Position numbers and translations under genes: made by a program. A stretch of DNA of 64,000 bases from Candidatus Krumholzibacteriia bacterium. GTDB lineage: Bacteria > Krumholzibacteriota > Krumholzibacteriia > LZORAL124-64-63. The DNA lies in contig DAOTGJ010000006.1 in NCBI GenBank assembly GCA_035447065.1, forward strand, positions 5,668 to 69,667. Reading direction: 5' to 3'. The notes beneath the pieces were generated by a model. The model did no database searches. It was not told the DNA's origin and saw nothing but the letters and a program-made list of their open reading frames with translations. This document shows positions 9,354 to 54,113 of the stretch, piece by piece. The stretch's first letter is position 1. The number at the start of each line of letters is the position of its first letter.

Positions 9354-11075
<1,722 letters not shown>

Positions 11076-12081: not shown

Positions 12082-12999
12082 CTACGGCTCGTTACCGGGC
12101 CTCGATTCCGGTCCCTCCGGCCGCGTTTCGCGTTCCAGCCCGGCGCGCACGTGGGCCCGGTAGGCCTCCTGCACCTTGCGCGTGACCGGACCGGGGCGGC
12201 CGCCGCCGGCCGGCCGGCCGTCCACGGCCGTGACCGGGACCACCTCCTTGACCGAACCGCAGAGGAAGGCCTCGTCGGCCGCGGCCAGCTCCGCGGGGCC
12301 GAAGGCCTCCTCGCGCACCTCCAGGCCCAGGGCGGCGGCGCCGTCCAGGACCAGGGCGCGGGTGCGTCCGGCCAGCAGACCCAGCTCCAGGGGCGGGGTG
12401 ACCAGGGCCCGGCCGCGGACCAGGAAGACGTTGCTGGTGGCGGCCTCCAGCACGCGGCCCTCGGCGTCCACCAGGAGGGCCTCGTCGCAGCCGGCGGCCC
12501 GGGCGCGGCGCAGGGCGGTGACGGTGGGCAGGGAGTTCAGCGTCTTCAGGTGCGGGAAGTTGCCGCGCGCGTAGGCCGCGGGCATGGAGAGCAGGGCGAT
12601 GCCGTCGCGCTGCCAGCCGTCCTCGCGTCCGCCCAGGGCGCGGACCACCAGGGAGACCGTGGGGGAGAGGTCCGGGTGGCCGCTCAGGGGCATGGGGTCG
12701 TCGGGATCCGCCCCACGGCTGACGGTGAGGCGGGCGCGGGCGTCCGCGCGCTCCCAGCCGTTGGCCTTCAGCACCTGGGAGAGGGCGTCGTGGACGGCGC
12801 CGGCCTCGGGCCGCCAGCGGTACTCCAGGGCCTCCAGGTTGCGGGCCATGCGCGCCAGATGGCCGGCCAGGTCGAAGGGTCGGCCGCCGTAGACCCGGAA
12901 CGTCTCGTAAACGCCGTCGCCGTAGAGATAGCCGCCGTCCAGCAGGGGCACGGCGGCCTCCGCGGCGGGCAGGCAGGTTCCGTTCAGCCAGACGATCAT
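12082..12999 (-). CDS. aminotransferase class IV (branched-chain amino acid aminotransferase / aminodeoxychorismate lyase family)
   Basis: The product begins 'MIVWLNGTCLPAAEAAVPLLDGGYLYGDGVYETFRVYGG' and carries the 'TSNVFLV' motif. Confidence 0.85.
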   Translation of the reverse strand: MIVWLNGTCLPAAEAAVPLLDGGYLYGDGVYETFRVYGGRPFDLAGHLARMARNLEALEYRWRPEAGAVHDALSQVLKANGWERADARARLTVSRGADPDDPMPLSGHPDLSPTVSLVVRALGGREDGWQRDGIALLSMPAAYARGNFPHLKTLNSLPTVTALRRARAAGCDEALLVDAEGRVLEAATSNVFLVRGRALVTPPLELGLLAGRTRALVLDGAAALGLEVREEAFGPAELAAADEAFLCGSVKEVVPVTAVDGRPAGGGRPGPVTRKVQEAYRAHVRAGLERETRPEGPESRPGNEP

Positions 13000-13050
13000 C
13001 GCCCCTCCGACCTCCTCCGCGCCCCGCGCAGCCCGTTCCCAACAGCGAAG

Positions 13051-13085
13051 TTGACAGGTTTCGAATGTATGTTAGCTTTGGCCCT
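13051..13085 (+). promoter_or_regulatory. promoter candidate upstream of nuo operon (perfect -35 TTGACA, ambiguous -10 TATGTT/TAGCTT)
   Basis: This locally AT-rich island lies about 90-120 nt upstream of nuoA. Confidence 0.25.
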
Positions 13086-42133: not shown

Positions 42134-42746
42134 CCTGGCCCGCCCCGGGTCCGGCCCCGTGGTGGACCTGGGCTGCGGCGACGGCCGCTTCGGAGACCGG
42201 CTGCGGGAGCATCATCCGGCCGGGATCTACGGCCTGGACCGCTCCCGCGGACCGCATGTGCGGGCCGCGGCGATCGCGGACGTGGATCGGCCGCCGCTGC
42301 GGGACGGGGGCTGCGGGCTCCTCGTGGCCGCCAACCTCCTGCGCCACCTGCCGCACCCCGCGGCGGCCGTCGCGGCCTGGCGTCGGGCCTTGCGCCCGGA
42401 CGGCGTGCTGTGGATCCTGGAGGACGAGCCCGCCGCCGCCGCGGGACCCGGCGGCCTCTACCGTGACCTTCAGGGCTGGCTGGTGCGGCACGGTCCGCCC
42501 GGACGGGGCGCGCTGCTGCCGCAGCGGCGGGCCCGGGAGCTGCTGGACGACGGGCCGGGGTGGCGCTGGGGCGGCTTCGTGAACCAGGAGGCCCTGCGGG
42601 ATCCCGCGGCCCTGCTCGCGGGATTGCGGGCCGCGGCGGCCGGGGGAGACGCGGCGGCGGCCGTCCTGGCCGACCGCCTGGAGCGGGAATCCTTCGCGTA
42701 CGGCGAGGCCTGGTGGGCCCGCTGGCAACAGGAGGCGGTGGCGTGA
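42096..42746 (+). CDS. class I SAM-dependent methyltransferase
   Basis: It has the SAM motif I 'VVDLGCGDGRFG'. It overlaps the wecA-like gene by 38 nt, so the start is uncertain. Confidence 0.6.
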   Translation: MSFSPLPKTLIADLARPGSGPVVDLGCGDGRFGDRLREHHPAGIYGLDRSRGPHVRAAAIADVDRPPLRDGGCGLLVAANLLRHLPHPAAAVAAWRRALRPDGVLWILEDEPAAAAGPGGLYRDLQGWLVRHGPPGRGALLPQRRARELLDDGPGWRWGGFVNQEALRDPAALLAGLRAAAAGGDAAAAVLADRLERESFAYGEAWWARWQQEAVA

Positions 42747-44023
42747 GGACCAGGCTGGCATGGCTGCTGGCGGCGTCGGCGGTGCTCGGAAGCCTGGTCG
42801 CTGGCTTCGTGGACCATCGTCCCCGTGCGCTGGTGGATTGGCGGAGCCTGCGTGCGGTGGCGCTGGAGAGCGATGACTGGGGCCTGCCGGGCTACGTGCC
42901 CGATGCCCACGCCTTGGACGGCGTGGACCGGGCCGCCCTGGGCGGGACCCACTTCCCGGACGTGTACTGGAACTCCACCCTCGAATCCGCGGCCGATCTG
43001 GATGCCATGGTGGCGCTCATGCGCCGTCATCATGCCCGCGACGGCCTGCCGGCCGTGTTCCAGCCCAACATGATCCTGAAGCCGCAACTCCCTGGCCTGG
43101 ACTCACCTTACCATAGGCCGGGGCTCGCGGAGGCCGAGCGCCGGGCCGTGGCTTCCGGCACCTGGCAGCCGGAGATCCACGGGGCCGATCACATCGATCC
43201 GGCGCGGCGGGACGAGGCCCTGACGGATCCTGATCCGGTTCTGGCCCAGGCGGCCTCCCGCGGCGTCCTGGTGTTCCCGCGCAGCCACACGGCCTTCGAG
43301 CTGGGCCCCCAGCGGCCCCTGGCCGACGTCCGCCGCAGCTGGGAACCCCTGCCGCGCCGTTTCGAGGATCGTTTCGGCCAGCCGGCCACGGCGGTCATCG
43401 CGCCGGACTACGTCTGGGACGGCCGCCACGAGGGGCTCTTCCGGGATCTGGGCCTGCGCATCGTCCAGGCCAAGGACCACCAGCGCCAGCTGGGCCTGGT
43501 CGGGCCGCAGCACTGGCGGGACGTGCGGCGGCTCGCCCTGCGCCTCTGGGACCGCTGGCGGGTGCGGGATCTGGTCTACCTGGATCGGAACGCCTTCTTC
43601 GAGACCGCCCACGCGGAAGACCCGCGGGCCCTGGTGCGCTCCTGCGCGGATCAGGTGCGAGGGGCCTGGCGGCGCGGGGAGCCGGCCATCGTGGAGACCC
43701 ATCGCGTGGGTTTCGTGCAGGTGGAGCCCGGCGCGGGGGCGGAGGGGCGCGCCCTGCTGGACAGCCTGCTGACGGATCTGGACGCCTCCGCGCCCCTGTA
43801 CGTGTCGGACGCCGAGCTGGCCGGTCTGGCGCGGCGCGGGATCTCCGCGGTGCGGCGGGGCCCCGTCTGGGTCCTCCGCAACCCGGGCCCGGCCCATCGC
43901 CTGGCCATTCTGCCGACGGATGGGCCTCGGGCCTCGCCGGCCCGGATCGGCGTGCCCGCCCGCACCACCCTGGTCCTGGATCGGACCTCGCTGGCCGTAC
44001 TGCAGCGGCTGCCCCTCCGTTGA
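42743..44023 (+). CDS. hypothetical membrane-anchored protein (polysaccharide-locus associated)
   Basis: It starts at GTG overlapping the upstream stop and has an N-terminal TM anchor 'LAWLLAASAVLGSLVAGF'. The 426-aa product has no recognised motif. Confidence 0.5.
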   Translation: MRTRLAWLLAASAVLGSLVAGFVDHRPRALVDWRSLRAVALESDDWGLPGYVPDAHALDGVDRAALGGTHFPDVYWNSTLESAADLDAMVALMRRHHARDGLPAVFQPNMILKPQLPGLDSPYHRPGLAEAERRAVASGTWQPEIHGADHIDPARRDEALTDPDPVLAQAASRGVLVFPRSHTAFELGPQRPLADVRRSWEPLPRRFEDRFGQPATAVIAPDYVWDGRHEGLFRDLGLRIVQAKDHQRQLGLVGPQHWRDVRRLALRLWDRWRVRDLVYLDRNAFFETAHAEDPRALVRSCADQVRGAWRRGEPAIVETHRVGFVQVEPGAGAEGRALLDSLLTDLDASAPLYVSDAELAGLARRGISAVRRGPVWVLRNPGPAHRLAILPTDGPRASPARIGVPARTTLVLDRTSLAVLQRLPLR

Positions 44024-44048
44024 CACTCTCCTCTGATTTGTAGTACCA
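44019..44048 (+). promoter_or_regulatory. sigma70-like promoter candidate TTGACA-N18-TACCAT for peptidase gene 1
   Basis: A perfect -35 overlaps the upstream stop codon. The leader downstream is homologous to that of peptidase gene 2. Confidence 0.35.
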
Positions 44049-44191
44049 TCATATGCGTTGAGGATAAGGGGGAGGACTCCCGCCTCACGCACTCAATCTG
44101 CGCGCACCTCGTGGTGACCTCGCCACCGGCCTCGGCCGGACACCTCAGAACGCAGAGGATTTCATTGCAGCGCACCGTCTCGCCCCGGTCC

Positions 44192-47100
44192 ATGCGACTC
44201 GTCCCCGTCGCCAAGAGCGGAGTCATCAAGTCCGGCATCGGCGCCTGGCTGATCGTGCTCCTCTGCGCGAGCGTCCTGCCGGCCGCGGCCGCCGACCATA
44301 CCGTCACCCTGGACCAGGCCCCGATCTGGAGCCGGGAGCTCGCCGGCACCGTGGTGCGCTGGCCCGGCCTGCCGCTCCTCGACGATCCCGACGCGCCGGC
44401 CCTGCCGTACCACGACGTGACCATCCTGCTGCCGCCGGGAGAGAGCCTGAGCGAGGTCCGGGTCCAGCCGGCGGAGGTGGCCGTGCGCCCCCTCGACGCG
44501 CCCATGGCTCCGGGGCGGCCTCCGCTCAGCGATCAGGGGGACACGGCGGCGGGCCGTACCGTTCCGGACGGAGGCGCGCCGCAGGCCTGGGGCGAGGTCC
44601 TGGGCACCAGCACCTGGCACGGCTATCAGCTGGGCCACGTGCGCATCCATCCCGTCCGTCTGCGCGAGACGGCGGACGGCCCCGTGGCCGAACACGCGCG
44701 CACGTTCCGGCTGACCACCTCCACCCGCCCCTCCACGCGGGCCAGCGTGTTGCGCCAGCGCGCCGTGCCCGGCGAGGAGCTCCGCCTGCGTTCCGTCCTG
44801 GGCCGTCACGTGCTGGGAGCCGAGCTCGCCGCCGCCTACCCGCAGGCCGCCGCCTCCGCCGCCGCCAAGACCCTGGAGGGCTACCGGCCCACCGACGCCC
44901 CGAGCCTGGACGGCTCGGACGTGCGCTTCGTGATCGTGACCACCGAAGCCCTGCGCCCGGCCTTCGAGCCGCTGGCCGAGTACCGCTGCGCCCAGGGCGT
45001 GCCCACGGTGGTGCGCACCCTGGAGTGGATCCTGGCCAACACCCTGCCCGAGGCCGACCCCCAGGCCACCCTGCGCTCGTTCCTGGCCGACGCCTACACG
45101 CGCTGGGGCGTGCGCTACGCCCTTCTGGGCGGCGACGTGGGCGTGATCCCCACGCGGATGATCTTCAACACCTACTACCCGTCCCAGAAGGGGTCGGACA
45201 TCCCGGTGGACCTGTACTACGGGGGGCTGGACGGCGACTGGAACGCCGACCGCGACGAGAACCTGGGCGAGCCCTACCTCAACGGCTTCGATCAGGGCGA
45301 CGACGCCGATCTGGTGCCGGAGATCCACGTGGGCCGCGCGCCGGTCACGAGCCTGGCCCAGGCCCAGACCTTCGTGGGCAAGATCCTGGCCTACGAGCGC
45401 GACCACGCCGGCGCGTACCAGGGCCGCGCCCTCTTCCTCAGCGAGGTCCTGTTCCCCAGCGACTACTCGCCGGGCGACGAGATCTACGACGACGGCGCCG
45501 CCTACAGCGAGGCCATCATCGCCGACGCCCTCGCCGGCCGCGACTTCGCCTACGACCGCCACTACGAGACCAGCCCCCTCTGGCCCGGCTCCGTGCCCGA
45601 GACGCGCAGCGGCGTCATCGGCGCCCTGAACAGCGGCCAGTACGGCATCGTGAACCACATCGGTCACGGCTACTTCTACAACATGTCCGTGGGGGCCGAG
45701 ACCCTGAACACGAAGGACGCGGAGGCCCTCCACAACGGCGACCAGCTCTTCGTGCTGAACAACCTGAACTGCGCCTCGGCGGCCATCGACTACAACTCCA
45801 TCATGGAGCGCTTCGTGACCAACGCCGACGGCGGCGCCGTGGCCGCCGTGGGCTCGAGCCGCGCCGCGTTCCCCTCCACCGCCTCGGGCTACCAGGCCAA
45901 CTTCTTCGACGGGATCTTCGTGCAGGGGCTGCGCACCCTGGGCGAGGCCGTGAACGCCATGCGCACGCCGTACGACGGCCAGACCTTCCAGAACACCGTG
46001 CAACGGTGGACCCACATGACGCTGGTGCTGGTGGGCGATCCCACGCTGCGCCTCTACGGCGCCGCGCCGACGGACCTGGCCGTGGCCGCGCCGGCCGCCC
46101 TCTCGCCGGGCCGGCAGGACGTGACCGTGGACGTGACCCGCGGCGGCGCGCCAGTGGCCGGCGCCGCCGTCTGCTTCTGGAAGGACGGCGACGACTACCG
46201 CACCGCGCTGACCGACGCCGCCGGCCGCGTCGTGGCCCCGGTGCACCTGCGCGGCGCCGGCACGCTGCGCATCACGGCCACCGCCGCCGACAGCCCGCCC
46301 CTGGAGATCGTCGTGCCCGTGGACGCGGGCCTGACGGCGTATCCCGCGCTGGCGGGCCTGACGGTGGTGGACGACGGCAGCCTGGGCACCCTGGGCAACG
46401 GCGACGGCGTGCCGGGCGCGGGCGAGACCGTGGCCCTGCTCACCGACTGGACCAACGCCGGCGGCGCCGACGCGGCCGCCGCGGGCACGCTCGCCCTGAG
46501 CTGCGACGATCCCCTCGTGAACGTCCTGACCGCCGGCGTGGATCTGCCGGCGCTGGCCGCGGGCGCCACCGGCGCGGCCGCGGCGCCCGTCCTGCTCCAG
46601 CTCGCCGCCACCATCCCCGACCGTTCCGAGTTCAGGCTCGACTTCACGGCGGCGTGGCAGAGCGGTCCCGTGGCGCAGCCCAGCATGCTCGAGGTCGTGG
46701 CTCCGCGCATGGAGCCGGGCCAGATGGCTTTCAACGACTACCCGCACGGCGACGGCGACGGCCTCATGGAGCCGGGCGAGCTGGTGCGACTCAAGCTCAG
46801 CCTCCTGAACACCGGCTGGGGCCTGGCCACCGGGCTGGTGGGCTGGATCGATCCGTCGGACCCCAACATCACCGTGGTCCAGGGCATCGGCACGTGGCCC
46901 CAGGCCGGGCGCAACCAGGAGGTGGAGCAGGAGCAGGAGTTCCTCCTCTCCATGGCCGCGGTGAACGGCACCGTGGAAGCCGTGCTGCACCTGGCGGATT
47001 CGCTGGGCCAGACCTGGGAGCACCGCTTCTCGCTGAACCGGCCGGCCACCCCGGTGATCTCCGAGGTGGAGTCCAGCAGCGTGGGGGAGATCCTGCTGGT

Positions 47101-48982
47101 GTGGGATCCCAACGCCGAGGCCGACCTGCTGGGCTACCACGTGCAGCGCGCGGCGTCGTCCAGCGGCCCGTACGAGCGGCTGACCCTGCGCCCCATCACC
47201 GGCGGCGCCTTCTTCCGCGACATCGGGCTGGATCCCCTGACGCGCTACTTCTACAAGGTCGCGGCCGTGGACTCGTCGCGGTTCGTGTCGGCCTACTCGC
47301 TCCCCATCTCCGTGAGCACGCCGCCCGCGGAGCAGACCGGCTTCCCCATCACCATGCCGGTGGAGACCTCCAGCCACATCGCCGTGGGCGACGTGAACGG
47401 CGACGGCGCCCTGGAGGTGGTCACCGCGGCGGAGGCCATCTACGTGTGGACGGCCGACGGCAACGAGCTGCTGGACGGCGACAACGATCCCACCACCCTG
47501 GGCCCCTTCGTGGACAACGGGGAGACCTGGACGCCCGCGGGCATCGTGCTGGCGGACATCACCGACGATCCCGGCCTGGAGATCGTGGCCTCGTGCCGCT
47601 CCACCAACGCCATCTACGTGTTCGAGTCCGACGGCGCGGTGGCGCCGGGCTGGCCGCGCACCATGAACAACTGGAACTGGGCCACGCCCTGCGCCGGGGA
47701 CATCGACGGCGACGGCCTGGCGGAGGTGGTGGTGAACACCATCCGCAACCGCACCTACGCCTGGAACCACGACGGCACGGAGGTGCTCGACGGCGACGGC
47801 GACCCCGCCACCGACGGCGTGTTCCACGAGCGCGTGAACGAGTGGTACTCCTTCGCCACGCCGTCGCTGGCGGACCTGGACGGCGACGGCGCGGCGGAGG
47901 TCATCTTCGGCACGCGCAGCAGCGACACGGCCCCGGACGAGCTGCTGGCCCTGCGCGCCGACGGCACCCAGCCCGCCGGCTGGCCGGTGCTGCTGGGGAT
48001 CTACGGCGAGGCCATGGATTCGCCGGCGGTGGGCGACTGGGACCGCGACGGCGACGTGGAGATCGTGCTCATCACGGAGGACGACAAGCTCCACGTCCTG
48101 GACCGCACCGGCGCCCACGAGCCCGGGTTCCCCATCGCGTTCATCGCCGACAACAACGGCGTGGGCCAGAGCTGCCCCTCGCCGGCCCTGGGCGACATGG
48201 ACGGCGACGGTCTGCTGGAGATCGTGGCCGTGGCCGTGGACGACGCCACCCATGCCATGATCCACGTCATCGGCCGCGACGGCCTGGACCTGCCCGGCTG
48301 GCCCAAGGCCGTGGGCGGCAGCTCGGAGAGCTCGCCCATCCTGGGCGACGTGACCGGCGACGGCCTGCCCGACGTGATCTACGGCATCGGCGGCGCCAGC
48401 GACTCCCAGGAGAACCTCCTCTACGCCTTCCGCAACGACGGCGCCACGATCCCGGGCTTCCCGCTCTCGCTGTCGGGACCCGTGCGCGCCACGCCCACCC
48501 TGACGGACCTGAACGGCGACGGCGACGTGGACCTGGTCTACGCCGGCTGGGACCTCGCGGTGCACGTCTGGGATTTCCCGGCCCCGTGGAACGAGGCCGC
48601 CGCGGCCTGGCCCACCTTCCACGGCGACGTGCAGCGCCGCGGCGTGACGGCGGACCTGACGATCTCCGCGGTGGCGGAGCCGTCGCCGCTGCTGCCGCAG
48701 GCGCTCGTGCTCGAGCCCTGCGCGCCCAACCCCTTCAATCCGGCCACGACGATCCGCTTCGCGCTGCCGGCCGACGTGCGCGGCCGCACGCGCCTGCGCG
48801 TGTTCGATCTCCAGGGCCGCCTGGTGCGCACGCTGGTGGACGGAGTGCTGCCCGCGGGCTTCCACGAGGTGGCGTGGCGGGGCCGCGACGACCGGGACCG
48901 CGCCGTGGGCAGCGGCGTGTACCTCTATCGCCTCGAGGCCGGCGGCGTGGCCGCCCAGGGGCGCATGACCCTGGTCAAGTAG
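44192..48982 (+). CDS. secreted multidomain C25 (gingipain-like) cysteine peptidase with FN3/Ig domains, FG-GAP repeats and T9SS-type C-terminal sorting domain (paralog 1)
   Basis: The signal peptide is 'MRLVPVAKSGVIKSGIGAWLIVLLCASVLPAAAA'. It has 'VRFVIVTTEALRPAFEPLAEYR', the dyad 'HIGHGYF' plus 'NNLNCASAAID', repeated 'GDVNGDGALEVV', 'DIDGDGLAEVV' and 'DLNGDGDVDLVYAG', and a C-terminus 'NPFNPATTIRFALP...SGVYLYRLEAG...RMTLVK'. Confidence 0.85.
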   Translation: MRLVPVAKSGVIKSGIGAWLIVLLCASVLPAAAADHTVTLDQAPIWSRELAGTVVRWPGLPLLDDPDAPALPYHDVTILLPPGESLSEVRVQPAEVAVRPLDAPMAPGRPPLSDQGDTAAGRTVPDGGAPQAWGEVLGTSTWHGYQLGHVRIHPVRLRETADGPVAEHARTFRLTTSTRPSTRASVLRQRAVPGEELRLRSVLGRHVLGAELAAAYPQAAASAAAKTLEGYRPTDAPSLDGSDVRFVIVTTEALRPAFEPLAEYRCAQGVPTVVRTLEWILANTLPEADPQATLRSFLADAYTRWGVRYALLGGDVGVIPTRMIFNTYYPSQKGSDIPVDLYYGGLDGDWNADRDENLGEPYLNGFDQGDDADLVPEIHVGRAPVTSLAQAQTFVGKILAYERDHAGAYQGRALFLSEVLFPSDYSPGDEIYDDGAAYSEAIIADALAGRDFAYDRHYETSPLWPGSVPETRSGVIGALNSGQYGIVNHIGHGYFYNMSVGAETLNTKDAEALHNGDQLFVLNNLNCASAAIDYNSIMERFVTNADGGAVAAVGSSRAAFPSTASGYQANFFDGIFVQGLRTLGEAVNAMRTPYDGQTFQNTVQRWTHMTLVLVGDPTLRLYGAAPTDLAVAAPAALSPGRQDVTVDVTRGGAPVAGAAVCFWKDGDDYRTALTDAAGRVVAPVHLRGAGTLRITATAADSPPLEIVVPVDAGLTAYPALAGLTVVDDGSLGTLGNGDGVPGAGETVALLTDWTNAGGADAAAAGTLALSCDDPLVNVLTAGVDLPALAAGATGAAAAPVLLQLAATIPDRSEFRLDFTAAWQSGPVAQPSMLEVVAPRMEPGQMAFNDYPHGDGDGLMEPGELVRLKLSLLNTGWGLATGLVGWIDPSDPNITVVQGIGTWPQAGRNQEVEQEQEFLLSMAAVNGTVEAVLHLADSLGQTWEHRFSLNRPATPVISEVESSSVGEILLVWDPNAEADLLGYHVQRAASSSGPYERLTLRPITGGAFFRDIGLDPLTRYFYKVAAVDSSRFVSAYSLPISVSTPPAEQTGFPITMPVETSSHIAVGDVNGDGALEVVTAAEAIYVWTADGNELLDGDNDPTTLGPFVDNGETWTPAGIVLADITDDPGLEIVASCRSTNAIYVFESDGAVAPGWPRTMNNWNWATPCAGDIDGDGLAEVVVNTIRNRTYAWNHDGTEVLDGDGDPATDGVFHERVNEWYSFATPSLADLDGDGAAEVIFGTRSSDTAPDELLALRADGTQPAGWPVLLGIYGEAMDSPAVGDWDRDGDVEIVLITEDDKLHVLDRTGAHEPGFPIAFIADNNGVGQSCPSPALGDMDGDGLLEIVAVAVDDATHAMIHVIGRDGLDLPGWPKAVGGSSESSPILGDVTGDGLPDVIYGIGGASDSQENLLYAFRNDGATIPGFPLSLSGPVRATPTLTDLNGDGDVDLVYAGWDLAVHVWDFPAPWNEAAAAWPTFHGDVQRRGVTADLTISAVAEPSPLLPQALVLEPCAPNPFNPATTIRFALPADVRGRTRLRVFDLQGRLVRTLVDGVLPAGFHEVAWRGRDDRDRAVGSGVYLYRLEAGGVAAQGRMTLVK

Positions 48983-48998
48983 GGGAGTTCCACCCCCC

Positions 48999-49027
48999 TT
49001 GCAACGGGCCGGCGGTTCTGGTATCAT
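48999..49027 (+). promoter_or_regulatory. sigma70-like promoter TTGCAA-N17-TATCAT for peptidase gene 2
   Basis: It has good -35 and -10 elements with 17-bp spacing, 16 nt after the gene 1 stop. A leader of about 240 nt follows. Confidence 0.4.
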
Positions 49028-49271
49028 GCTGATTCGCCCTGGAGGGAGGGCGGCCCGCCTCAGAGTCTCACCGCGTTTTCACTTGCCGGAAGGAGCGGCC
49101 GGGAAGCAGGTTAAAGCGTCTGACGGGACCGCGAAGCGGCCCCTGATTCCAGCTAGCGTACCCGGTTCGACGCCCTTGGTTCGCACGCGAACCGATCCGA
49201 GTCCGAAACGACCACGATAGACACCATTCCGCCAGGCCCGGCCGTCCGGGCCGATGACACGGGAGTGACCT

Positions 49272-52200
49272 ATGGTCCGCGATCGTCTCCGTTCGAAGCC
49301 TCGGGCGCGGCTGGCCGCGCTCGCCTGCATTGCGATCACCCTCCTCCTCGCCGCCGGCGTCGCCGCCGCGGCCGAGCGCGTCCTGCACCACGGCGTACTG
49401 GACGCCGACAAGCTCGTCTGGGAGTCCACCGCGGCCGGCAGCGTGCCGCGCTTCGGCGATGCTCCCATCTACCTGCAGGACGGGGTGCCCCAGGTGCCCA
49501 GCCTGTCGGTGACCGTGCTTGTGCCCGCCGACGCCGCCCTGGGCGACGTGACGGTGGTGCCCCTGCGCACCCGCCTCGTGGACGCGCCGTCGGCCCTGGC
49601 CTACGGCCGGCCGCTGATCAGCAGCGAGGGGGTGGCCGCCACCCAGGATCTCGTGTCCGCGTCCCGCGACCGCTTCCCCGACGCCTGGGGCCTGGACGGC
49701 GGCGATTCCTACCGCCGCGGCTACCGCCTCCAGAGCGTCACCGTGTTCCCCGTGCGCGCCGTCCGCGGCGCCGACGGGGTCTGGTCCGGCGTCGAGGTGC
49801 TGGAGGAGTTCGAGATCCGCACCGCCGGCACCGAGCCCGCGCCGCGGCCGGAGGACCGGGCGGTGCGCCGCCTGCTGGTGCCCGGCGAGCGCGAGCGCCT
49901 GGAGAGGGAGCTGGCGTCCGCGGTAGTCAACCCCGGCGCCCTCGGCGGCTACGCCCGCGAGGACGGCGTCCCCGCCGCGGATCTGCCCGGCGACAAGACC
50001 ATGAACCTGGGCGATTCCCCCTACGCCTACCTGATCATCACCTCCGAGGCCCTGGCGCCGGCGTTCGAGCCCCTGGCCGCGCACCGCACCGCCGGCGGCC
50101 TGCGCGCCACCGTCAAGACGCTGGAGTGGATCGAGGCCAACTACCGCCACGGCGCGGATCTCCAGGAGACCGTCCGCGGCTTCATCCGCGAGGCCTACGA
50201 GCGCTGGGGCGTGGAGTACGTGCTGCTGGGCGGCGACACCGACGTCATCCCGGCCCGCTACGCCCTGAGCAACTTCTACCCGCCCACGCAGACCACGGAC
50301 ATCCCCGCGGACATCTACTACGCGTGCCTGGACGGCAACTGGAACGCGGACGGCGACCCGTACTTCGGCGAGGCCGGCAGCTCCACGATCCCCGCCGACG
50401 ACGCCGACATGGCCGCGGAGGTCTTCCTGGGCCGCGCGCCGGTCAGCACGCCGGCGGAGGCCCAGAACTTCGTGACCAAGGTGGTGGACTACGAGCTCGG
50501 CACGGGCGGCGTCCACTACCCCAACAAGCTGCTGCTCGCCGCGGAGGTGCTCTTCCGCTCCGAGGCCGGCGACATCACGCTGGACGGGGCGTCCTTCGCC
50601 GAGGAGATCTACCTGGAGCTCGTGCAGCCCAACACCACCATGGACGTGGTGCGCATGTACGAGTCGTACAACGAGACCGACGAGTTCGGCGCGCCCCTGT
50701 ACCCCGGCTCCGTGCGCGAGACGCGGGCCGCGGTCATCGACACGCTGGACACCGGCACCTTCGGGATCTTCGTGCAGATCGGCCACGGCTTCTTCTTCAA
50801 CATGTCCATGGCCGATGCCGACATGACCGTGGGCGACGCCGACGGCCTGGTCAACGCGGACCGTCCGTTCCTGCTCTACGGGCTGAACTGCGCCAGCTGC
50901 GCCTTCGACTACAGCTGCCTCATGGAGCGGTTCGTGCAGAACCCCACCGGCGGCGCCATCGCGTCCATCGGCGCCTCCCGCGCGGCGTTCCCGTACACGT
51001 CCAACGACTTCCAGTACGAGTTCTTCCGCCTCTACTACGAGGAGGACGTGACGCGCCTGGGCGATCTCATCGACCGCAGCAAGCTGCCCTGGCTGTCGCT
51101 GGCGTACTCCAACAGCTTCACGCGCTGGACCTTCCTCAACTACACCCTGCTGGGCGACCCCGGCATGGCCCTGTGGCGCAACCGGCCCGCGGCCGTGACC
51201 CTGGGCACCCCGGGCAGCGTGGGCGGCGGCGACCAGACCGTGAACGTGACCGTCAGCAGCGCCGGCTCGCCGGTGCAGGACGCCATCGTGACCGTGCAGG
51301 GCGGGGGCACCTACGCCACCGCGGCCACCAACGCCTCCGGCCTCGCGGCCGTGCCGGTCACCGTGAACGCCGCGGGCCCGCTGAGCGTGGACGTGCACGG
51401 GCAGGACCTGGTCTGGACCAGCCGCGACGTTCCGGTGGTCTTCGGCGGCGCCTTCGTGGGGCTCGAGGACATGACGGTGCTGGACGACGGCACCCTGGGC
51501 ACCGTCGGCAACGGCAACGGCCGCGCCGAGGCGGGGGAGACCGTGGGCTTCTGGCCCACCTTCGCCGGCGTGGGCAGCAGCGGCAGCGGCGCCGCCACCG
51601 CCACGCTCGTCACCGCCGAGACCGGCGTGACCGTGGTGGACGGCAGCGTGGGCGTGCCGGCCCTGGCCGTGGGCGCCCAGGCCCAGAGCGACGCGCCCTT
51701 CCTGGTGGCCCTGGCCGCCGACGTGGCCGACGGCCGCCGCCTGGACTTCGACCTGGCGGTGAACGACGGCGCCAAGGCCCTCTACGCCAACGCCTGGTCC
51801 ACGCTGGCCACGGCGCCCGAGGTCGAGGCCGTGGCCCTGGACTGGTACGACACCTTCTTCGGCGACGGCGACGGCGTCGTGGACGACGGCGAGCGCATCT
51901 CCGTGCGCATGACCCTGAAGAACTACGGCGGCGGCGCGGCCGACGTGGTCACGGGACGCCTGCGCACCAACTCGGCCAACGTGAACGTCATCGACTCGGT
52001 GGCCACCTACGGCCCCCTGGACCTGCTGGACTCCTCGCAGGGGAGCGGCCTGTTCAGCTTCTCGCTGACCAGCGCCGTGGCGGCCTACGACGTGCGCGTG
52101 GAGTTCACCGACAACCGCGGCCGCACGTTCAGCCATCCGTTCGCCCTGAGCGATCCCACCACCCCCCTCAACCTGGTGGCCACCGGCTCGCTGGGCCCGG

Positions 52201-54113
52201 ACATCATCGGCCTCTCCTGGACGCCGGTGACGGATCCCAAGCTGCGCGGCTACCACGTCTACCGCAGCCAGAACGAGGGCGGTCCCTTCACGCGGGTCTC
52301 CGACGACCTGATCGAGGACATCTCGTACTTCCGCGACAAGGGCCTGGGCCTCCTCACGCGCTACTACTACCAGGTGTCCAGCGTGGACTCCAACCTGGTG
52401 GAGAGCCCCGTGTCGGCGGCCATCGCCCAGAGCACGGCGCCGCCGGAGATCACCAACTTCCCGCTGCCGTTCAACGGCGAGTCCAGCGGCCACTTCGCCG
52501 TGGGCGACGTGACCGGCGACGGTCATCTGGACATCGTCTTCGGCGCCAGCGAGATCTACGTCTGGCAGCGCGACGGCTCCGAGCTCTTCGACGGCGACGG
52601 GGACTCCCAGACCCTGGGCCCCATCACCGACGTGGACGGCACCTTCGGCCCCATGGGCATCGCCCTGGCGGAGCTCAACGGCCTGCCGGGCCTGGAGATC
52701 ATCTGCCAGGACCGCGACGCCAGGCTCCTGCACGTCTACGACGCCAAGACGGGTCAGGACCTTCCCGGCTGGCCTCAGCCCACGGGCCTGAACTGGGCCT
52801 GGGCCACGCCCGCCGTGGGGGATCTGGACAACGACGGCGATCTCGAGATCGTCATGAACAACCAGGCCGGCCAGACGCTGGTCTGGCACCACGACGGCAC
52901 GGAGCTGCTCGACGGCGACGCCAACCCCGCCACCAACGGCGTGTTCTTCGTCCGGCCCGAGGGCCGCTGGGCCTACGACCTGAGCTCGCCGGCCCTGTTC
53001 GACCTGGACGGCGACGGCAACCTGGAGATCATCTTCGGCACCAAGTACGCCTGGAACGCCGAGAACAAGCTCCACGCCCTGCGCATCGACGGCACCGAGG
53101 CCGCCGGCTTCCCCTACGTGACCGGCCTGGGCGCCAGCATCACCAGCAGCCCCACCATCGCGGACCTGAACGGCGACGGCGTGTGGGAGATCATCTTCCT
53201 GCACGAGCTGGAGAAGCTGCTGGTCGTGGAGCAGGACGGGACGGACTACCCCGGCTTCCCGATGACGCTGACGTCGAACAACGGCAACACGGCCTGCCCG
53301 AGCCCCGCCGTGGGCGACTTCGACGGCGACGGCCAGCTGGAGATCGCCTGCATCTCCACCGTGAGCGTGGTCAGCGCCTTCGTCACGGTGGTGGACACGG
53401 ATCCGGCCGGCGGCAGCGGCACCGTGCTGCCCGGCTGGCCCCAGGAGATCCCCGGCAACTCCGAGTCCAGCCCCGTGGTGGGCGACATCAACGGCGACGG
53501 GTTCCCCGACATCGTCCACGGCATCGGCGGCGGGGACGAGGAGACCCTCAACGAGATCTTCGCCTTCGACCATCAGGGCAACCCGGTGGAAGGCTTCCCC
53601 ATCACCCTGGGCGGTCCCATCCGCCCGGCGCTGGTCATCACGGACCTGGACGACGACCACGACGTGGACATCGTCTACGGCGGCTGGGACGGCGCCATGC
53701 ACGTGTGGGACATGCCCTTCCCGGCGGACGGCACCCAGATCCCCTGGGGCACCTTCCGCGGCCATTACCACCGCGACGGCGTGTACCGCAACTACAGCCC
53801 CACGGGCGTGGAGGAGGCCCCGGCCCCGGTGGACCTGACCCTGGGTTCCATCCGGCCCAACCCCTTCAACCCGAGCACCACGGTGCGCCTCTACGTGCCC
53901 GCCATGGGCCGCGAGGGGCTGGAGGTGGACGTCTTCGACGTGCAGGGCCGCCGCGTGCGCCGCCTGCACGAGGGCGCCCTGGAGGCGGGCTGGCACGACT
54001 TCGTCTGGAACGGCCGCGACGACGCCGGCAAGGCCCAGGCCAGCGGCCTGTACCTGCTGCGCGCCAAGGGCGGCGACACCTCGGTCAGCGCCAAGATGGC
54101 CCTGATCCGTTGA
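49272..54113 (+). CDS. secreted multidomain C25 (gingipain-like) cysteine peptidase with FN3/Ig domains, FG-GAP repeats and T9SS-type C-terminal sorting domain (paralog 2)
   Basis: The signal peptide is 'MVRDRLRSKPRARLAALACIAITLLLAAGVAAAA'. It has 'YAYLIITSEALAPAFEPLAAHR', 'QIGHGFFFNM' plus 'YGLNCASCAFD', 'GDVTGDGHLDIVFG' and 'DLNGDGVWEIIF', and a C-terminus 'NPFNPSTTVRLYVP...SGLYLLRAKGG...KMALIR'. Confidence 0.85.
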   Translation: MVRDRLRSKPRARLAALACIAITLLLAAGVAAAAERVLHHGVLDADKLVWESTAAGSVPRFGDAPIYLQDGVPQVPSLSVTVLVPADAALGDVTVVPLRTRLVDAPSALAYGRPLISSEGVAATQDLVSASRDRFPDAWGLDGGDSYRRGYRLQSVTVFPVRAVRGADGVWSGVEVLEEFEIRTAGTEPAPRPEDRAVRRLLVPGERERLERELASAVVNPGALGGYAREDGVPAADLPGDKTMNLGDSPYAYLIITSEALAPAFEPLAAHRTAGGLRATVKTLEWIEANYRHGADLQETVRGFIREAYERWGVEYVLLGGDTDVIPARYALSNFYPPTQTTDIPADIYYACLDGNWNADGDPYFGEAGSSTIPADDADMAAEVFLGRAPVSTPAEAQNFVTKVVDYELGTGGVHYPNKLLLAAEVLFRSEAGDITLDGASFAEEIYLELVQPNTTMDVVRMYESYNETDEFGAPLYPGSVRETRAAVIDTLDTGTFGIFVQIGHGFFFNMSMADADMTVGDADGLVNADRPFLLYGLNCASCAFDYSCLMERFVQNPTGGAIASIGASRAAFPYTSNDFQYEFFRLYYEEDVTRLGDLIDRSKLPWLSLAYSNSFTRWTFLNYTLLGDPGMALWRNRPAAVTLGTPGSVGGGDQTVNVTVSSAGSPVQDAIVTVQGGGTYATAATNASGLAAVPVTVNAAGPLSVDVHGQDLVWTSRDVPVVFGGAFVGLEDMTVLDDGTLGTVGNGNGRAEAGETVGFWPTFAGVGSSGSGAATATLVTAETGVTVVDGSVGVPALAVGAQAQSDAPFLVALAADVADGRRLDFDLAVNDGAKALYANAWSTLATAPEVEAVALDWYDTFFGDGDGVVDDGERISVRMTLKNYGGGAADVVTGRLRTNSANVNVIDSVATYGPLDLLDSSQGSGLFSFSLTSAVAAYDVRVEFTDNRGRTFSHPFALSDPTTPLNLVATGSLGPDIIGLSWTPVTDPKLRGYHVYRSQNEGGPFTRVSDDLIEDISYFRDKGLGLLTRYYYQVSSVDSNLVESPVSAAIAQSTAPPEITNFPLPFNGESSGHFAVGDVTGDGHLDIVFGASEIYVWQRDGSELFDGDGDSQTLGPITDVDGTFGPMGIALAELNGLPGLEIICQDRDARLLHVYDAKTGQDLPGWPQPTGLNWAWATPAVGDLDNDGDLEIVMNNQAGQTLVWHHDGTELLDGDANPATNGVFFVRPEGRWAYDLSSPALFDLDGDGNLEIIFGTKYAWNAENKLHALRIDGTEAAGFPYVTGLGASITSSPTIADLNGDGVWEIIFLHELEKLLVVEQDGTDYPGFPMTLTSNNGNTACPSPAVGDFDGDGQLEIACISTVSVVSAFVTVVDTDPAGGSGTVLPGWPQEIPGNSESSPVVGDINGDGFPDIVHGIGGGDEETLNEIFAFDHQGNPVEGFPITLGGPIRPALVITDLDDDHDVDIVYGGWDGAMHVWDMPFPADGTQIPWGTFRGHYHRDGVYRNYSPTGVEEAPAPVDLTLGSIRPNPFNPSTTVRLYVPAMGREGLEVDVFDVQGRRVRRLHEGALEAGWHDFVWNGRDDAGKAQASGLYLLRAKGGDTSVSAKMALIR

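What the first reader, a model, noticed from the sequence alone, without database searches (positions are those of the whole stretch)
48999..49065. Duplicated promoter plus conserved leader element upstream of both giant peptidase genes
Gene 2 is preceded by TTGCAA-N17-TATCAT, and gene 1 (44019-44085) by TTGACA-N18-TACCAT. In both, the motif CCCGCCTCA lies exactly 26 nt downstream of the shared ATCAT, within GGAGG-rich context. The full leaders are GGGGGAGGACTCCCGCCTCACGCACTC and GGAGGGAGGGCGGCCCGCCTCAGAGTCTC. Conservation of spacing across otherwise diverged intergenic DNA argues for a functional cis-element, such as a transcription start region, a regulator binding site or an RNA motif, that was co-duplicated with the genes.
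Basis: seen in the sequence. Interest (0 to 1): 0.55.

Follow-up and report, generated by a model that had tools for sequence, protein, structure and literature searches.

The report
Two promoters, two different leader RNAs
Each of two neighbouring giant secreted-peptidase genes in this uncultured Krumholzibacteria genome has its own conserved promoter and a long folded mRNA leader, but no related genome keeps the nine-base motif the two leaders seem to share; the more interesting feature is the second gene's leader, a conserved RNA with no match in Rfam.

Summary
The sequence facts are exact: TTGACA-N18-TACCAT (44020-44049), TTGCAA-N17-TATCAT (48999-49027), and CCCGCCTCA 26 nt after an ATCAT in both. 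The two promoters look real. They are the only sigma-70-like sites in 7 kb, and they recur at the same place in all nine syntenic lineages, always N18/N17 for gene 1 and N17 plus TGG for gene 2.

The shared 9-mer does not hold up as a common element. ATCAT is not the -10 of gene 1, so relative to the -10 boxes the two copies are 3 nt out of register. The 9-mer is not enriched in the window. It is absent from every orthologous leader in 70 loci.

In gene 1 it falls in the 3' arms of a 5'-terminal stem-loop; three close lineages keep the outer stem with one covarying pair, and more distant ones fold a different 5' stem-loop. In gene 2 only CCCGCC is conserved.

Each gene has its own structured 5' UTR. 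The gene-2 leader (about 240 nt) is more conserved than fourfold-degenerate sites and has no Rfam match. Gene-2 orthologues in at least 18 other lineages carry a covarying leader RNA family. The window's version shares only a local signature with that family and fails its covariance model.

The parts
44020..44049 (+). Gene-1 promoter: -35 TTGACA (44020-25), 18-nt spacer, -10 TACCAT (44044-49). The TSS is inferred near 44055.
   Evidence: Consensus scan. The same TTGAC(A/C/G)-N18/17-TAnnnT recurs in 9 of 9 syntenic lineages. The stop codon TGA (44021-23) of the upstream ORF lies inside the -35.
44054..44091 (+). Gene-1 5'-terminal two-tier stem-loop. The outer stem is UGCG(U)UGAGG / CCUCACGCA and the inner hairpin is GGGGG-AGGA-CUCCC.
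   Evidence: MFE and centroid folds; the whole-leader z-score is -2.24. L001 keeps UGAGG/CCUCG and L003 has CGAGGA/UCCUCG, so the U-A pair becomes U-G and C-G. More distant lineages also fold a 5' stem-loop, but of other sequence.
44126..44167 (+). Gene-1 translation-initiation module: GC hairpin CCGGC-CUCG-GCCGG (44126-39), anti-SD CCUC (44143-46) paired with the SD GAGG (44155-58), and a conserved TTG start (44165-67).
   Evidence: Per-lineage folds. The hairpin covaries (CCGAC/GUCGG in L004, GGCU/AGCC in L008). The anti-SD/SD pair is CCUU/AAGG in L008. AGAGGA-N6-TTG aligns in 8 lineages.
44165..48982 (+). Gene 1: C25 peptidase + FG-GAP repeats + FlgD_ig C-terminal domain. The database start is ATG 44192.
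   Evidence: Pfam. A 100% identical protein is named as a Candidatus Krumholzibacteria C25 peptidase.
48999..49027 (+). Gene-2 promoter: -35 TTGCAA, 17-nt spacer, extended -10 TGG-TATCAT. The TSS is inferred near 49034.
   Evidence: Consensus scan with TG flagged. N17 is found in 9 of 9 tandem lineages, 6 of them with the TGG extension, and TTGACC-N17-TATAGT in most of 18 further gene-2-type loci.
49034..49053 (+). Gene-2 5' hairpin UCGCCCU-GGAGGG-AGGGCGG.
   Evidence: Local MFE and suboptimal folds. It is kept in L003 and weakened in L001.
49054..49062 (+). CCCGCCTCA in the gene-2 leader. Only CCCGCC is conserved, as a C-rich box upstream of CACUUGCC. Its pairing partner is unresolved.
   Evidence: The box is CCCGCC in the window, L001, L003, L010, L011, L012, L069 and L070, and CCCTGCC in L004. 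A long-range pairing with the SD/AUG region was tested and is no better than random.
49075..49200 (+). Conserved core of the gene-2 leader. It contains CACUUGCC; a hairpin GCCG-GAAGGAG-CGGC (49085-99) that displays an SD-like loop; GCAGGU-UAAAG (49106-16); a three-way junction GCGUC-U-GAC / GUU-C-GACGC (49116-24 with 49165-73) enclosing GGGACCGC-GAA-GCGGCCCC (49125-42) and CUG-AUUC-CAG (49143-52); and a hairpin GGUUCG-CACG-CGAACC (49178-93).
   Evidence: Identity to L001 and L003 is 0.86-0.89 against 0.68-0.71 at fourfold sites; for L004 it is 0.68 against 0.45. RNAalifold and pair counts give 94% of cells paired and 7 double changes against 2.2 in shuffles, with n=4. Loop-only indels (GAA, AC, AUG, GCU) and U-G wobbles point to the + strand RNA. 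No Rfam match.
49235..49274 (+). Gene-2 initiation region: hairpin GGCCCG(G)-loop-(C)CGGGCC (49235-52), GAUGACAC, SD GGGAG (49261-65) and ATG (49272-74).
   Evidence: Two compensatory pairs plus a G-U in the hairpin across four lineages. A TGA at 49266-68, in frame with the ATG, rules out an N-terminal extension.
49272..54113 (+). Gene 2: a paralogous C25 peptidase + FG-GAP + FlgD_ig protein.
   Evidence: Pfam; 40% identity to gene 1 over the full length.

Best explanation
The two tandem paralogous peptidase genes are separate transcription units. Each has its own housekeeping-type (sigma-70-like) promoter and is transcribed with a long structured 5' untranslated leader of about 110 nt (gene 1) or 240 nt (gene 2). 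The two leaders are different RNAs. The identical 9-mer is a coincidence of sequence inside two C-rich stretches that follow G-rich 5' hairpins.

In gene 1 the 9-mer forms the 3' arms of a 5'-terminal stem-loop. By inference, this protects the mRNA 5' end. Near the start codon, a short CCUC/GAGG hairpin occludes the ribosome-binding site of the conserved TTG start. By inference, this throttles translation.

In gene 2 the 9-mer sits just after the 5' hairpin. Only its CCCGCC part is under selection. It precedes a strongly conserved multi-helix RNA domain and a GC hairpin just upstream of the ribosome-binding site. By inference, that domain is a cis-acting regulatory RNA that sets translation or stability of the gene-2 message, possibly in response to a factor not yet identified.

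Shown here: the promoter matches and their conservation; leader conservation above the fourfold-site level; covariation in several helices. Inferred: the transcription starts and the regulatory outputs.
For: Promoters: these are the only two sigma-70-like sites in 7 kb, against 0.1 expected. They are conserved in 9 of 9 syntenic lineages with gene-specific spacer lengths, and in 18 more gene-2-type loci.

The 9-mer is not shared: it is absent from all orthologous leaders, gene-1 orthologues are variable at that position, and the two copies are 3 nt out of register relative to the -10 boxes.

Gene-1 structure: MFE and centroid folds give z = -2.24. Three close lineages keep the outer 5' stem, with the closing pair changing from U-A to U-G and C-G; more distant lineages fold a 5' stem-loop of other sequence. 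The pre-SD hairpin and the anti-SD/SD hairpin show compensatory variants.

Gene-2 leader: the core is more conserved than fourfold sites. There are 7 compensatory pairs against 2.2 in shuffles, and slid controls are lower. Indels are confined to loops.

Same position in orthologues: a leader RNA family was modelled from 9 and then 18 sequences. It has 12 pairs with double changes against 7.6 +/- 1.3 in shuffles (0 of 500 shuffles reach it) and a covariation score of 0.238 against 0.101. It always lies on the coding strand, with its 5' end about 150-275 nt upstream of the start codon. It also hits the gene-2 leader inside a tandem locus, L068, at E about 0.007-0.01.
Against: No transcription start has been mapped. 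The gene-2 leader as a whole folds no better than shuffles (z = +1.09), as expected at 73% GC.

The window-lineage structure rests on four sequences, and the structure was derived from those same sequences. Its central junction is invariant, so it says nothing for or against pairing.

The family model does not recognise the window's gene-2 leader, and neither does a sequence profile of the family core. Membership therefore rests on same-position orthology and a local signature.

A chance match within +/-3 nt of register has P of about 0.004, so coincidence is the conclusion from orthologues, not from statistics alone.
Confidence: 0.7

Rival explanations
1. CCCGCCTCA is a genuine shared cis-element, such as a regulator binding site or a common RNA motif. 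It was co-duplicated with the genes and kept at a fixed distance from the transcription start.
For: Identical 9-mers 26 nt after ATCAT in both leaders. The chance of a shared run within +/-3 nt of register is about 0.004. Both copies follow a GGAGG-containing hairpin.
Against: The 9-mer is absent from all orthologous leaders in 70 loci. Gene-1 orthologues show unrelated sequence there. It is not enriched in the window. The two copies are 3 nt out of register relative to the real -10 boxes. The duplication predates all sampled lineages (40% identity, tandem pair in 9 lineages), so a retained element should be visible in them.
Confidence: 0.05
2. The conserved gene-2 leader is a riboswitch-like sensor or a protein-binding regulatory RNA. 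It may be a divergent member of the leader RNA family found upstream of gene-2 orthologues, and it switches translation or termination of the peptidase gene. This refines the mechanism of the best explanation rather than competing with it.
For: A multi-helix junction with invariant unpaired bases, followed by a hairpin next to the SD. The family in orthologues has covarying P1, P2 and P3 and a GAGG/CCUC hairpin abutting P1. The window shares the order: stem, GGAG-bearing hairpin, closing arm, UAAAG, about 8 nt, then a hairpin. A descriptor of that order hits the window once, exactly there, against 0.095 per shuffled window; the descriptor was written after seeing the window.
Against: No Rfam class matches, in the window or in 15 orthologous loci. 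The architecture differs strongly between lineages, which is unusual for ligand aptamers. The family is tied to a single gene orthogroup, which suits a gene-specific protein or autoregulatory site better than a metabolite sensor. The family model and the core profile fail on the window.
Confidence: 0.2
3. The 240-nt region between the genes is an independent small RNA gene with its own promoter, ending at the GC hairpin 49235-49252. It is not the 5' UTR of gene 2.
For: Its own strong promoter, sequence conservation above that of the flanking coding DNA, and a terminal GC-rich hairpin.
Against: No U-tract follows the hairpin and no terminator-like site is detected. Hairpin-to-SD spacing and the UGMCAC-GGGAG motif are conserved. 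No second promoter lies between the RNA and the ATG. In every lineage the element is on the coding strand, directly upstream of the same gene.
Confidence: 0.08
4. The GGA-bearing hairpin loops of both leaders are binding sites for a CsrA/RsmA-type translational repressor, so the two paralogues are co-regulated post-transcriptionally. The loops are AGGA at 44073-76, GGAGGG at 49041-46 and GAAGGAG at 49089-95, together with the SD sequences.
For: GGA motifs sit in predicted hairpin loops, and another lies at or near each SD. That this is the canonical CsrA site layout is from my own knowledge of the family, not a test run here.
Against: Four GGA in a 110-nt leader against about two expected from base composition (hand estimate) is not remarkable. 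The GGAGG hairpins are not conserved across gene-1 orthologues. Whether this phylum encodes CsrA was not tested.
Confidence: 0.05

Closest known systems
Sigma-70 (RpoD) promoters with an extended -10
   Same: -35 TTGACA/TTGCAA and -10 TAnnnT hexamers with 17-18-nt spacers. Gene 2 has a TGG immediately upstream of the -10. The sites are conserved by phylogenetic footprinting.
   Different: No start site or sigma factor has been shown experimentally in this uncultured phylum. Gene 1 uses the less common 18-nt spacer in 7 of 9 lineages.
5'-terminal stabilising stem-loops of bacterial mRNAs (ompA 5' UTR type)
   Same: A stable stem-loop starts within a few nucleotides of the predicted 5' end. Three close gene-1 lineages keep the same outer stem and the others fold a stem-loop of other sequence.
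   Different: The role in mRNA stability is inferred from my own knowledge of the ompA paradigm. The exact 5' end is unknown, so the defining requirement of at most a few unpaired 5' nucleotides cannot be checked.
SD-sequestering leader hairpins (translational attenuators, thermometer-like elements)
   Same: In gene 1, CCUC lies 8 nt upstream of the SD GAGG and pairs with it. L008 has the compensatory CCUU/AAGG.
   Different: The helix is very short (4 bp) and is weak or absent in L069 and L006. No trigger is known.
Orphan cis-regulatory leader RNA motifs found by comparative genomics (the Rfam 'cis-reg; leader' kind)
   Same: The position in the 5' UTR of one orthologous gene, a multi-helix fold with covariation, and conserved loop nucleotides.
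   Different: It matches none of 4227 Rfam families. The gene association, a giant C25/FG-GAP peptidase with a FlgD_ig C-terminal domain, did not turn up in two full-text searches. The periphery is remodelled between lineages.

Membership tests
Sigma-70-type promoter | -35 and -10 hexamers matching TTGACA/TATAAT with a 16-18-nt spacer | tested here: met
   10 of 12 and 9 of 12 matches. These are the only two hits in 7 kb, against 0.1 expected.
Sigma-70-type promoter | Conservation of the hexamers at the same place in orthologous loci | tested here: met
   9 of 9 tandem lineages for each gene, plus 18 further gene-2-type loci.
Sigma-70-type promoter | A mapped transcription start 5-9 nt downstream of the -10 | not testable with these tools
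   No transcriptome data are available for this organism.
   No exact copy in any orthologous leader in 70 loci. Gene-1 orthologues are unrelated there. Gene-2 orthologues keep only CCCGCC.
   3 exact copies against 2.2 expected, and 35 against 51 with one mismatch. The third exact copy lies inside a minus-strand ORF at 12082-13071. Among the 19 ORFs scanned, only the two peptidases carry a CTD, so the wider genome test could not be run.
Any Rfam 15 family (riboswitches, leaders, sRNAs, tmRNA, SRP, 6S) | A covariance-model score at the gathering threshold, or at least E <= 1 | tested here: not met
   The window gives 0 hits at gathering. The two leaders give only noise at E <= 10. Fifteen orthologous loci give 0 hits at E <= 1. 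ARAGORN finds no tRNA or tmRNA.
Leader RNA family of gene-2-type C25 peptidase genes (defined here, models R1 and R2) | A significant score with the family covariance model (P1 CAGGGUC/GACCCUG, P2, P2a GGAG/CUCC, UAACG, P3, P4 GAGG/CCUC) | tested here: not met
   There is no hit on 48990-49290 even with filters off (best 0.2 bits). The gene-1 leader scores 8.5 bits: E = 3 in the whole window and 0.011 in 231 nt.
Leader RNA family of gene-2-type C25 peptidase genes (defined here, models R1 and R2) | The same genomic position: 5' UTR of the gene-2 orthologue, behind the conserved N17 promoter | tested here: met
   The family proteins are closer to gene 2 (40-46%) than to gene 1 (35-40%). L068, which has the tandem pair, carries a family hit in its gene-2 leader.
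Leader RNA family of gene-2-type C25 peptidase genes (defined here, models R1 and R2) | The core signature: a stem enclosing a GGAG(G) hairpin, then UAA(A/C)G, a short linker and a hairpin | tested here: inconclusive
   It is present by eye and by a post-hoc descriptor (one hit in the window, at 49081-49168, against 0.095 per shuffle). The same descriptor misses most family members. A sequence profile of the core finds nothing in the gene-2 leader.
5'-terminal stabiliser stem-loop | A stable hairpin beginning within about 0-4 nt of the mRNA 5' end | tested here: inconclusive
   Hairpins are predicted at 44054-44091 and 49034-49053. The true 5' ends are unknown.
CsrA/RsmA-regulated leader | Several GGA motifs in hairpin loops, one overlapping the SD, and a csrA gene in the genome | not tested
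   GGA-containing loops were seen. Presence of CsrA in the organism was not examined.

The most novel reading that the evidence does not exclude
The leaders belong to a previously undescribed class of structured regulatory RNAs that controls the giant C25/FG-GAP secreted peptidase of Krumholzibacteriota and related uncultured lineages. The family is seen in at least 18 lineages. The window's gene-2 leader would be a remodelled member. The RNA would sense a ligand or bind a dedicated protein to gate production of the peptidase.
Probability: 0.15. Interest if true: 0.65.

Novelty: new member of a known kind. Interest (0 to 1): 0.38.

Why it matters
The specific claim, a shared and co-duplicated 9-nt element, should be dropped. 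That removes a false regulatory motif from the list.

What remains is useful in three ways. First, it gives well-footprinted canonical sigma-70-type promoters in an uncultured phylum that NCBI taxonomy places in the FCB group. Second, it corrects the start of gene 1 to a conserved TTG. Third, it identifies long structured leaders in front of very large secreted peptidases, one of which belongs to, or descends from, a covarying RNA family that is not in Rfam.

If that family proves to be a sensor, it would be a handle on how these organisms regulate extracellular proteolysis, about which nothing is known.

Tried and rejected
1. Known RNA families. I suspected SRP RNA, 6S, tmRNA (the string CCCCUGAUUCCAG...GGUUCGACGCC resembles a tmRNA 5' end), and TPP, cobalamin or guanidine riboswitches. 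Rfam at gathering and at permissive E-values, and ARAGORN, give nothing.

2. A sigma-54 reading of GG-N10-GC around the 9-mer. I considered this by eye and dropped it: there are no TGGCA/TTGC cores and the canonical sigma-70 boxes are conserved.

3. A leader peptide after the internal GGAGG. There is no start codon at a suitable distance, and the 1-3-nt indels in loops argue against coding.

4. A long-range helix between the 9-mer region (49057-49080) and the SD/AUG (49253-49276). It appears in the MFE and duplex predictions, with one compensatory change in L003 and a wobble in L001. However, its -18 kcal/mol is worse than 78% of random 55-mers from this window against the same target. It is left as unsupported.

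5. Homology of the window's gene-2 leader to the family. CM R2 (whole window and restricted) and an nhmmer core profile are both negative.

6. A short core model from a MAFFT alignment. I abandoned it because bulges put the P2 arms in different registers.

7. More members of the window-type leader. nhmmer on all loci finds only the window, L001/2, L003 and L004/5/9. An exact two-block pattern finds nothing in 185,579 species genomes. The first protein-pattern scan of that collection also found nothing.

8. P1-like pairing of the gene-1 5' end with the pre-SD segment (UGCGUU/AACGCA), suggested by the R2 alignment. By eye on the sequences it is present only in the window and L001, and imperfectly in L003. 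I treat it as chance.
Full report
**What is there.** The window is 72% G+C. Gene 1 is 100% identical to a protein deposited as a C25 cysteine peptidase of a Candidatus Krumholzibacteria MAG. The finding concerns the regions upstream of two tandem genes, 44165/44192-48982 and 49272-54113. Both encode roughly 1600-aa proteins with Peptidase_C25, FG-GAP repeats and a FlgD_ig C-terminal domain. They are 40% identical over their full length.

**Checking the observation.**
- Gene 1: TTGACA 44020-25, N18, TACCAT 44044-49, and CCCGCCTCA 44079-87.
- Gene 2: TTGCAA 48999-49004, N17, TATCAT 49022-27, and CCCGCCTCA 49054-62.
- In both, 26 nt lie between an ATCAT and the 9-mer.

A consensus scan of 43000-50000 returns exactly these two promoter-like sites, against 0.1 expected, and no terminator-like site.

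**Is it more than chance?** The 9-mer itself is not enriched. There are 3 exact copies against 2.2 expected. The third lies inside a minus-strand ORF at 12082-13071. With up to one mismatch there are 35 copies against 51 expected.

The "exact spacing" depends on anchoring at ATCAT. In gene 1 that string is not the -10 box: orthologues have TAGAAT, TACAAT, TAAGAT, TATGAT or TATAAT aligned with TACCAT. Measured from the -10 hexamers, the two 9-mers are 3 nt out of register.

In dinucleotide shuffles of the two leaders, a shared run of at least 9 nt occurs with these probabilities:
- 0.001 at one fixed offset
- 0.004 within +/-3 nt
- 0.14 at any offset

So the match is nominally unusual, but the comparison was selected after the fact. 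Comparative data have to decide.

**Orthologous loci.** A protein search and contig look-ups recovered the same gene neighbourhood in eight further lineages, with gene-1 identity from 74% down to 47%. The order is PhoH, GlnA, Wzy_C, two glycosyltransferases, a methyltransferase, a hypothetical gene, the two peptidase genes, SBP_bac_5, and so on. The tandem pair is present in all of them, so the duplication is old.

Both promoters recur at the same place in all nine lineages:
- Gene 1 has TTGAC(A/C/G) and TAnnnT separated by 18 nt in 7 lineages and by 17 nt in 2.
- Gene 2 always has a 17-nt spacer, with TGG before the -10 in 6 of the 9.

A metagenome scan for gene-2 relatives added 59 loci. Of the 18 of these examined for a promoter, 15 show TTGACC-N17/18-TAnnnT and most read TATAGT. 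Descent of the two promoters from one ancestral promoter cannot be shown.

**The 9-mer in orthologues.** The exact 9-mer occurs in none of the orthologous leaders. The five matches in 70 loci all lie elsewhere. In gene-1 orthologues the corresponding stretch is unrelated, for example GCUGCCUCGCC in L001 and GCAUCCUCGCG in L003. In gene-2 orthologues only CCCGCC persists, in L001, L003, L010, L011, L012, L069 and L070, with CCCTGCC in L004. A pairwise alignment of the two window leaders shows no other similarity. The shared element is therefore best read as coincidence between two C-rich segments.

**The gene-1 leader (about 110 nt).** Its MFE and centroid structures (z = -2.24) begin with a two-tier stem-loop at 44054-44091. 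The 9-mer supplies CCC of the inner hairpin's 3' arm (GGGGG-AGGA-CUCCC), a bulged G, and the CCUCA 3' arm of the outer stem (UGAGG/CCUCA).

L001 keeps UGAGG/CCUCG and L003 has CGAGGA/UCCUCG, so the closing pair changes from U-A to U-G and C-G. More distant lineages also fold a 5' stem-loop, but from other sequence.

Near the start there is a conserved module:
- A GC hairpin at 44126-39, which covaries (CCGAC/GUCGG in L004, GGCU/AGCC in L008).
- ACACCUCAG, whose CCUC (44143-46) pairs with the SD GAGG (44155-58). L008 has CCUU/AAGG.
- A TTG at 44165 that aligns in eight lineages. This is probably the true start rather than the deposited ATG at 44192.

**The gene-2 leader (about 240 nt).** A 5' hairpin at 49034-53 is followed directly by the 9-mer. 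From about 49075 to 49200 the sequence is 86-89% identical to L001 and L003, where fourfold-degenerate sites of the adjacent gene are 68-71% identical. Against L004 the figures are 68% and 45%.

Differences are concentrated in loops and include 1-3-nt indels (GAA, AC, AUG, GCU). G-U wobbles fit the + strand.

RNAalifold predicts the following:
- A hairpin presenting GAAGGAG in its loop.
- A three-way junction, GCGUC-U-GAC / GUU-C-GACGC.
- The hairpin GGUUCG-CACG-CGAACC, which has a UUCG loop and a U-G pair in L003.
- A GC hairpin 8 nt before the SD GGGAG.

Pair counting gives 94% of cells paired and 7 pairs with double changes against 2.2 in shuffles (0 of 500 shuffles reach it), with lower values when the pairs are slid. 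The caveats are that there are only four sequences, the structure was derived from them, and the junction is invariant. The leader as a whole does not fold better than shuffles (z = +1.09). An in-frame TGA at 49266-68 rules out an N-terminal extension of the protein.

**A wider RNA family.** Upstream of gene-2-type genes in many metagenomic loci there is a recurring motif. A covariance model from nine sequences found 18 members at E <= 0.01.

On that alignment, 12 of 25 pairs show double changes, against 7.6 +/- 1.3 in shuffles (0 of 500 reach it). The covariation score is 0.238 against 0.101, and slid controls reach at most 0.114. The alignment was fitted to the model, which favours the structure.

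The consensus has these elements:
- P1, CAGGGUC/GACCCUG. L016, placed correctly but scoring only E 0.2-0.3, reads AGAGUUC/GAACUCU by eye.
- P2, enclosing a GGAG/CUCC hairpin.
- UAACG.
- A variable hairpin, P3, with 6 of 6 pairs covarying.
- A GAGG/CCUC hairpin abutting P1.

The element always lies on the coding strand. Its 5' end is about 150-275 nt upstream of the start codon and 23-113 nt downstream of the -10. No Rfam family matches it.

The proteins next to it are closer to gene 2 (40-46%) than to gene 1 (35-40%). In L068, which has the tandem pair, the family model hits the gene-2 leader (22 bits, E about 0.007-0.01).

**Is the window's leader a member?** The family model and a sequence profile of the family core do not detect the window's gene-2 leader.

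The resemblance is local:
- CACUUGCC followed by GGAAGGAG resembles CACUUGCCAGGAGG and GCUUGCCGGGAGG in L010-L012.
- AGGUUAAAG followed by CUGACGGG resembles GGUUAAAG...CCUGACGGGG in L016.

A post-hoc descriptor of that layout hits the window once, at 49081-49168, against 0.095 per shuffle. It misses most family members.

I therefore file the window's leader as occupying the orthologous position. It is plausibly a remodelled descendant, but it is not a demonstrated member.

The same model gives 8.5 bits on the gene-1 leader (44052-44182). That is E = 3 for the whole window and 0.011 if only the 231-nt leader region is searched. The P1-like pairing it proposes is not kept beyond the closest lineages (by eye), so I treat it as chance.

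**A mechanism tested and not supported.** A long-range helix between 49057-80, which includes the end of the 9-mer, and the SD/AUG region appears in the MFE and duplex predictions. It has one compensatory change in L003. Its energy (-18 kcal/mol) is worse than 78% of random 55-mers from the window against the same target. It is not evidence.

**Conclusion.** The locus holds two independent promoter-plus-structured-leader units. The 9-mer is not a common element. Its CCUCA half is structural in gene 1, and its CCCGCC half is a conserved box of unknown partner in gene 2.

The likely functions are inferred, not shown: 5'-end protection and SD occlusion for gene 1, and a cis-regulatory RNA domain for gene 2.

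Two full-text searches found no paper linking such a leader RNA to these genes or to this phylum.

Noticed in passing
window 44165-44192: The deposited protein starts at ATG 44192. A TTG at 44165, in frame and 6 nt after the SD AGAGGA, aligns with TTG starts in eight lineages. The annotated start of gene 1 is probably 9 codons too short.
   Followed up: partly
window 44020-44025: The -35 hexamer of the gene-1 promoter contains the stop codon TGA (44021-23) of the upstream ORF 42560-44023, which has no Pfam match. L001 has the same arrangement (gene end 9836; TTGACA at 9833).
   Followed up: partly
L019-L036, about 30-110 nt upstream of the RNA (e.g. L020 890-935): The promoters of the gene-2-type genes are almost identical across distant lineages well beyond the hexamers (TTTGT-N-CATTGACCA ... 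GGG-N-TTTGTGGTATAGT). This hints at an additional DNA-binding regulator site. The promoters are canonical -35/-10 type. From my own knowledge, this differs from the -33/-7 promoters of Bacteroidota.
   Followed up: no
window 49140-49175: CCCCUGAUUCCAG...GGUUCGACGCC resembles the 5' acceptor/T-like part of tmRNA (GGGGCUGAUUCUGGAUUCGACGGG, recalled from memory). ARAGORN and Rfam find no tmRNA or tRNA. It is probably coincidence.
   Followed up: partly
L006 15051-19796 versus L007 15051-18494: In L006 the gene-2 orthologue is interrupted by a stop and called as 247-aa and 1332-aa pieces. The near-identical contig L007 reads through. This is a pseudogene or an assembly error.
   Followed up: no
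L069 11011-16746: The gene-2 orthologue is called as a 2213-aa product that also carries SBP_bac_5, the neighbouring gene in other lineages. This is a possible read-through fusion or a missed stop.
   Followed up: no
window 36000-62000 and loci L001-L008, L068-L070: There is a very stable synteny block around the peptidase pair: PhoH, GlnA, a small hypothetical gene, Wzy_C O-antigen ligase-like, GT4, Glycos_transf_4, a methyltransferase, a 430-aa protein with no Pfam match, the two C25 genes, SBP_bac_5, HARE-HTH, HIT, PfkB, HSP20 and Lon. The link between cell-envelope glycosylation genes and the two secreted peptidases may be functional.
   Followed up: no
window 44052-44182: The family model, built without any window-lineage sequence, aligns end to end with the gene-1 leader. 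It places P1 at UGCGUU/AACGCA and its GAGG at the gene-1 SD (8.5 bits). This is not significant window-wide (E = 3) and is not conserved in distant orthologues, but it is the only hint of a common origin of the two leaders.
   Followed up: partly
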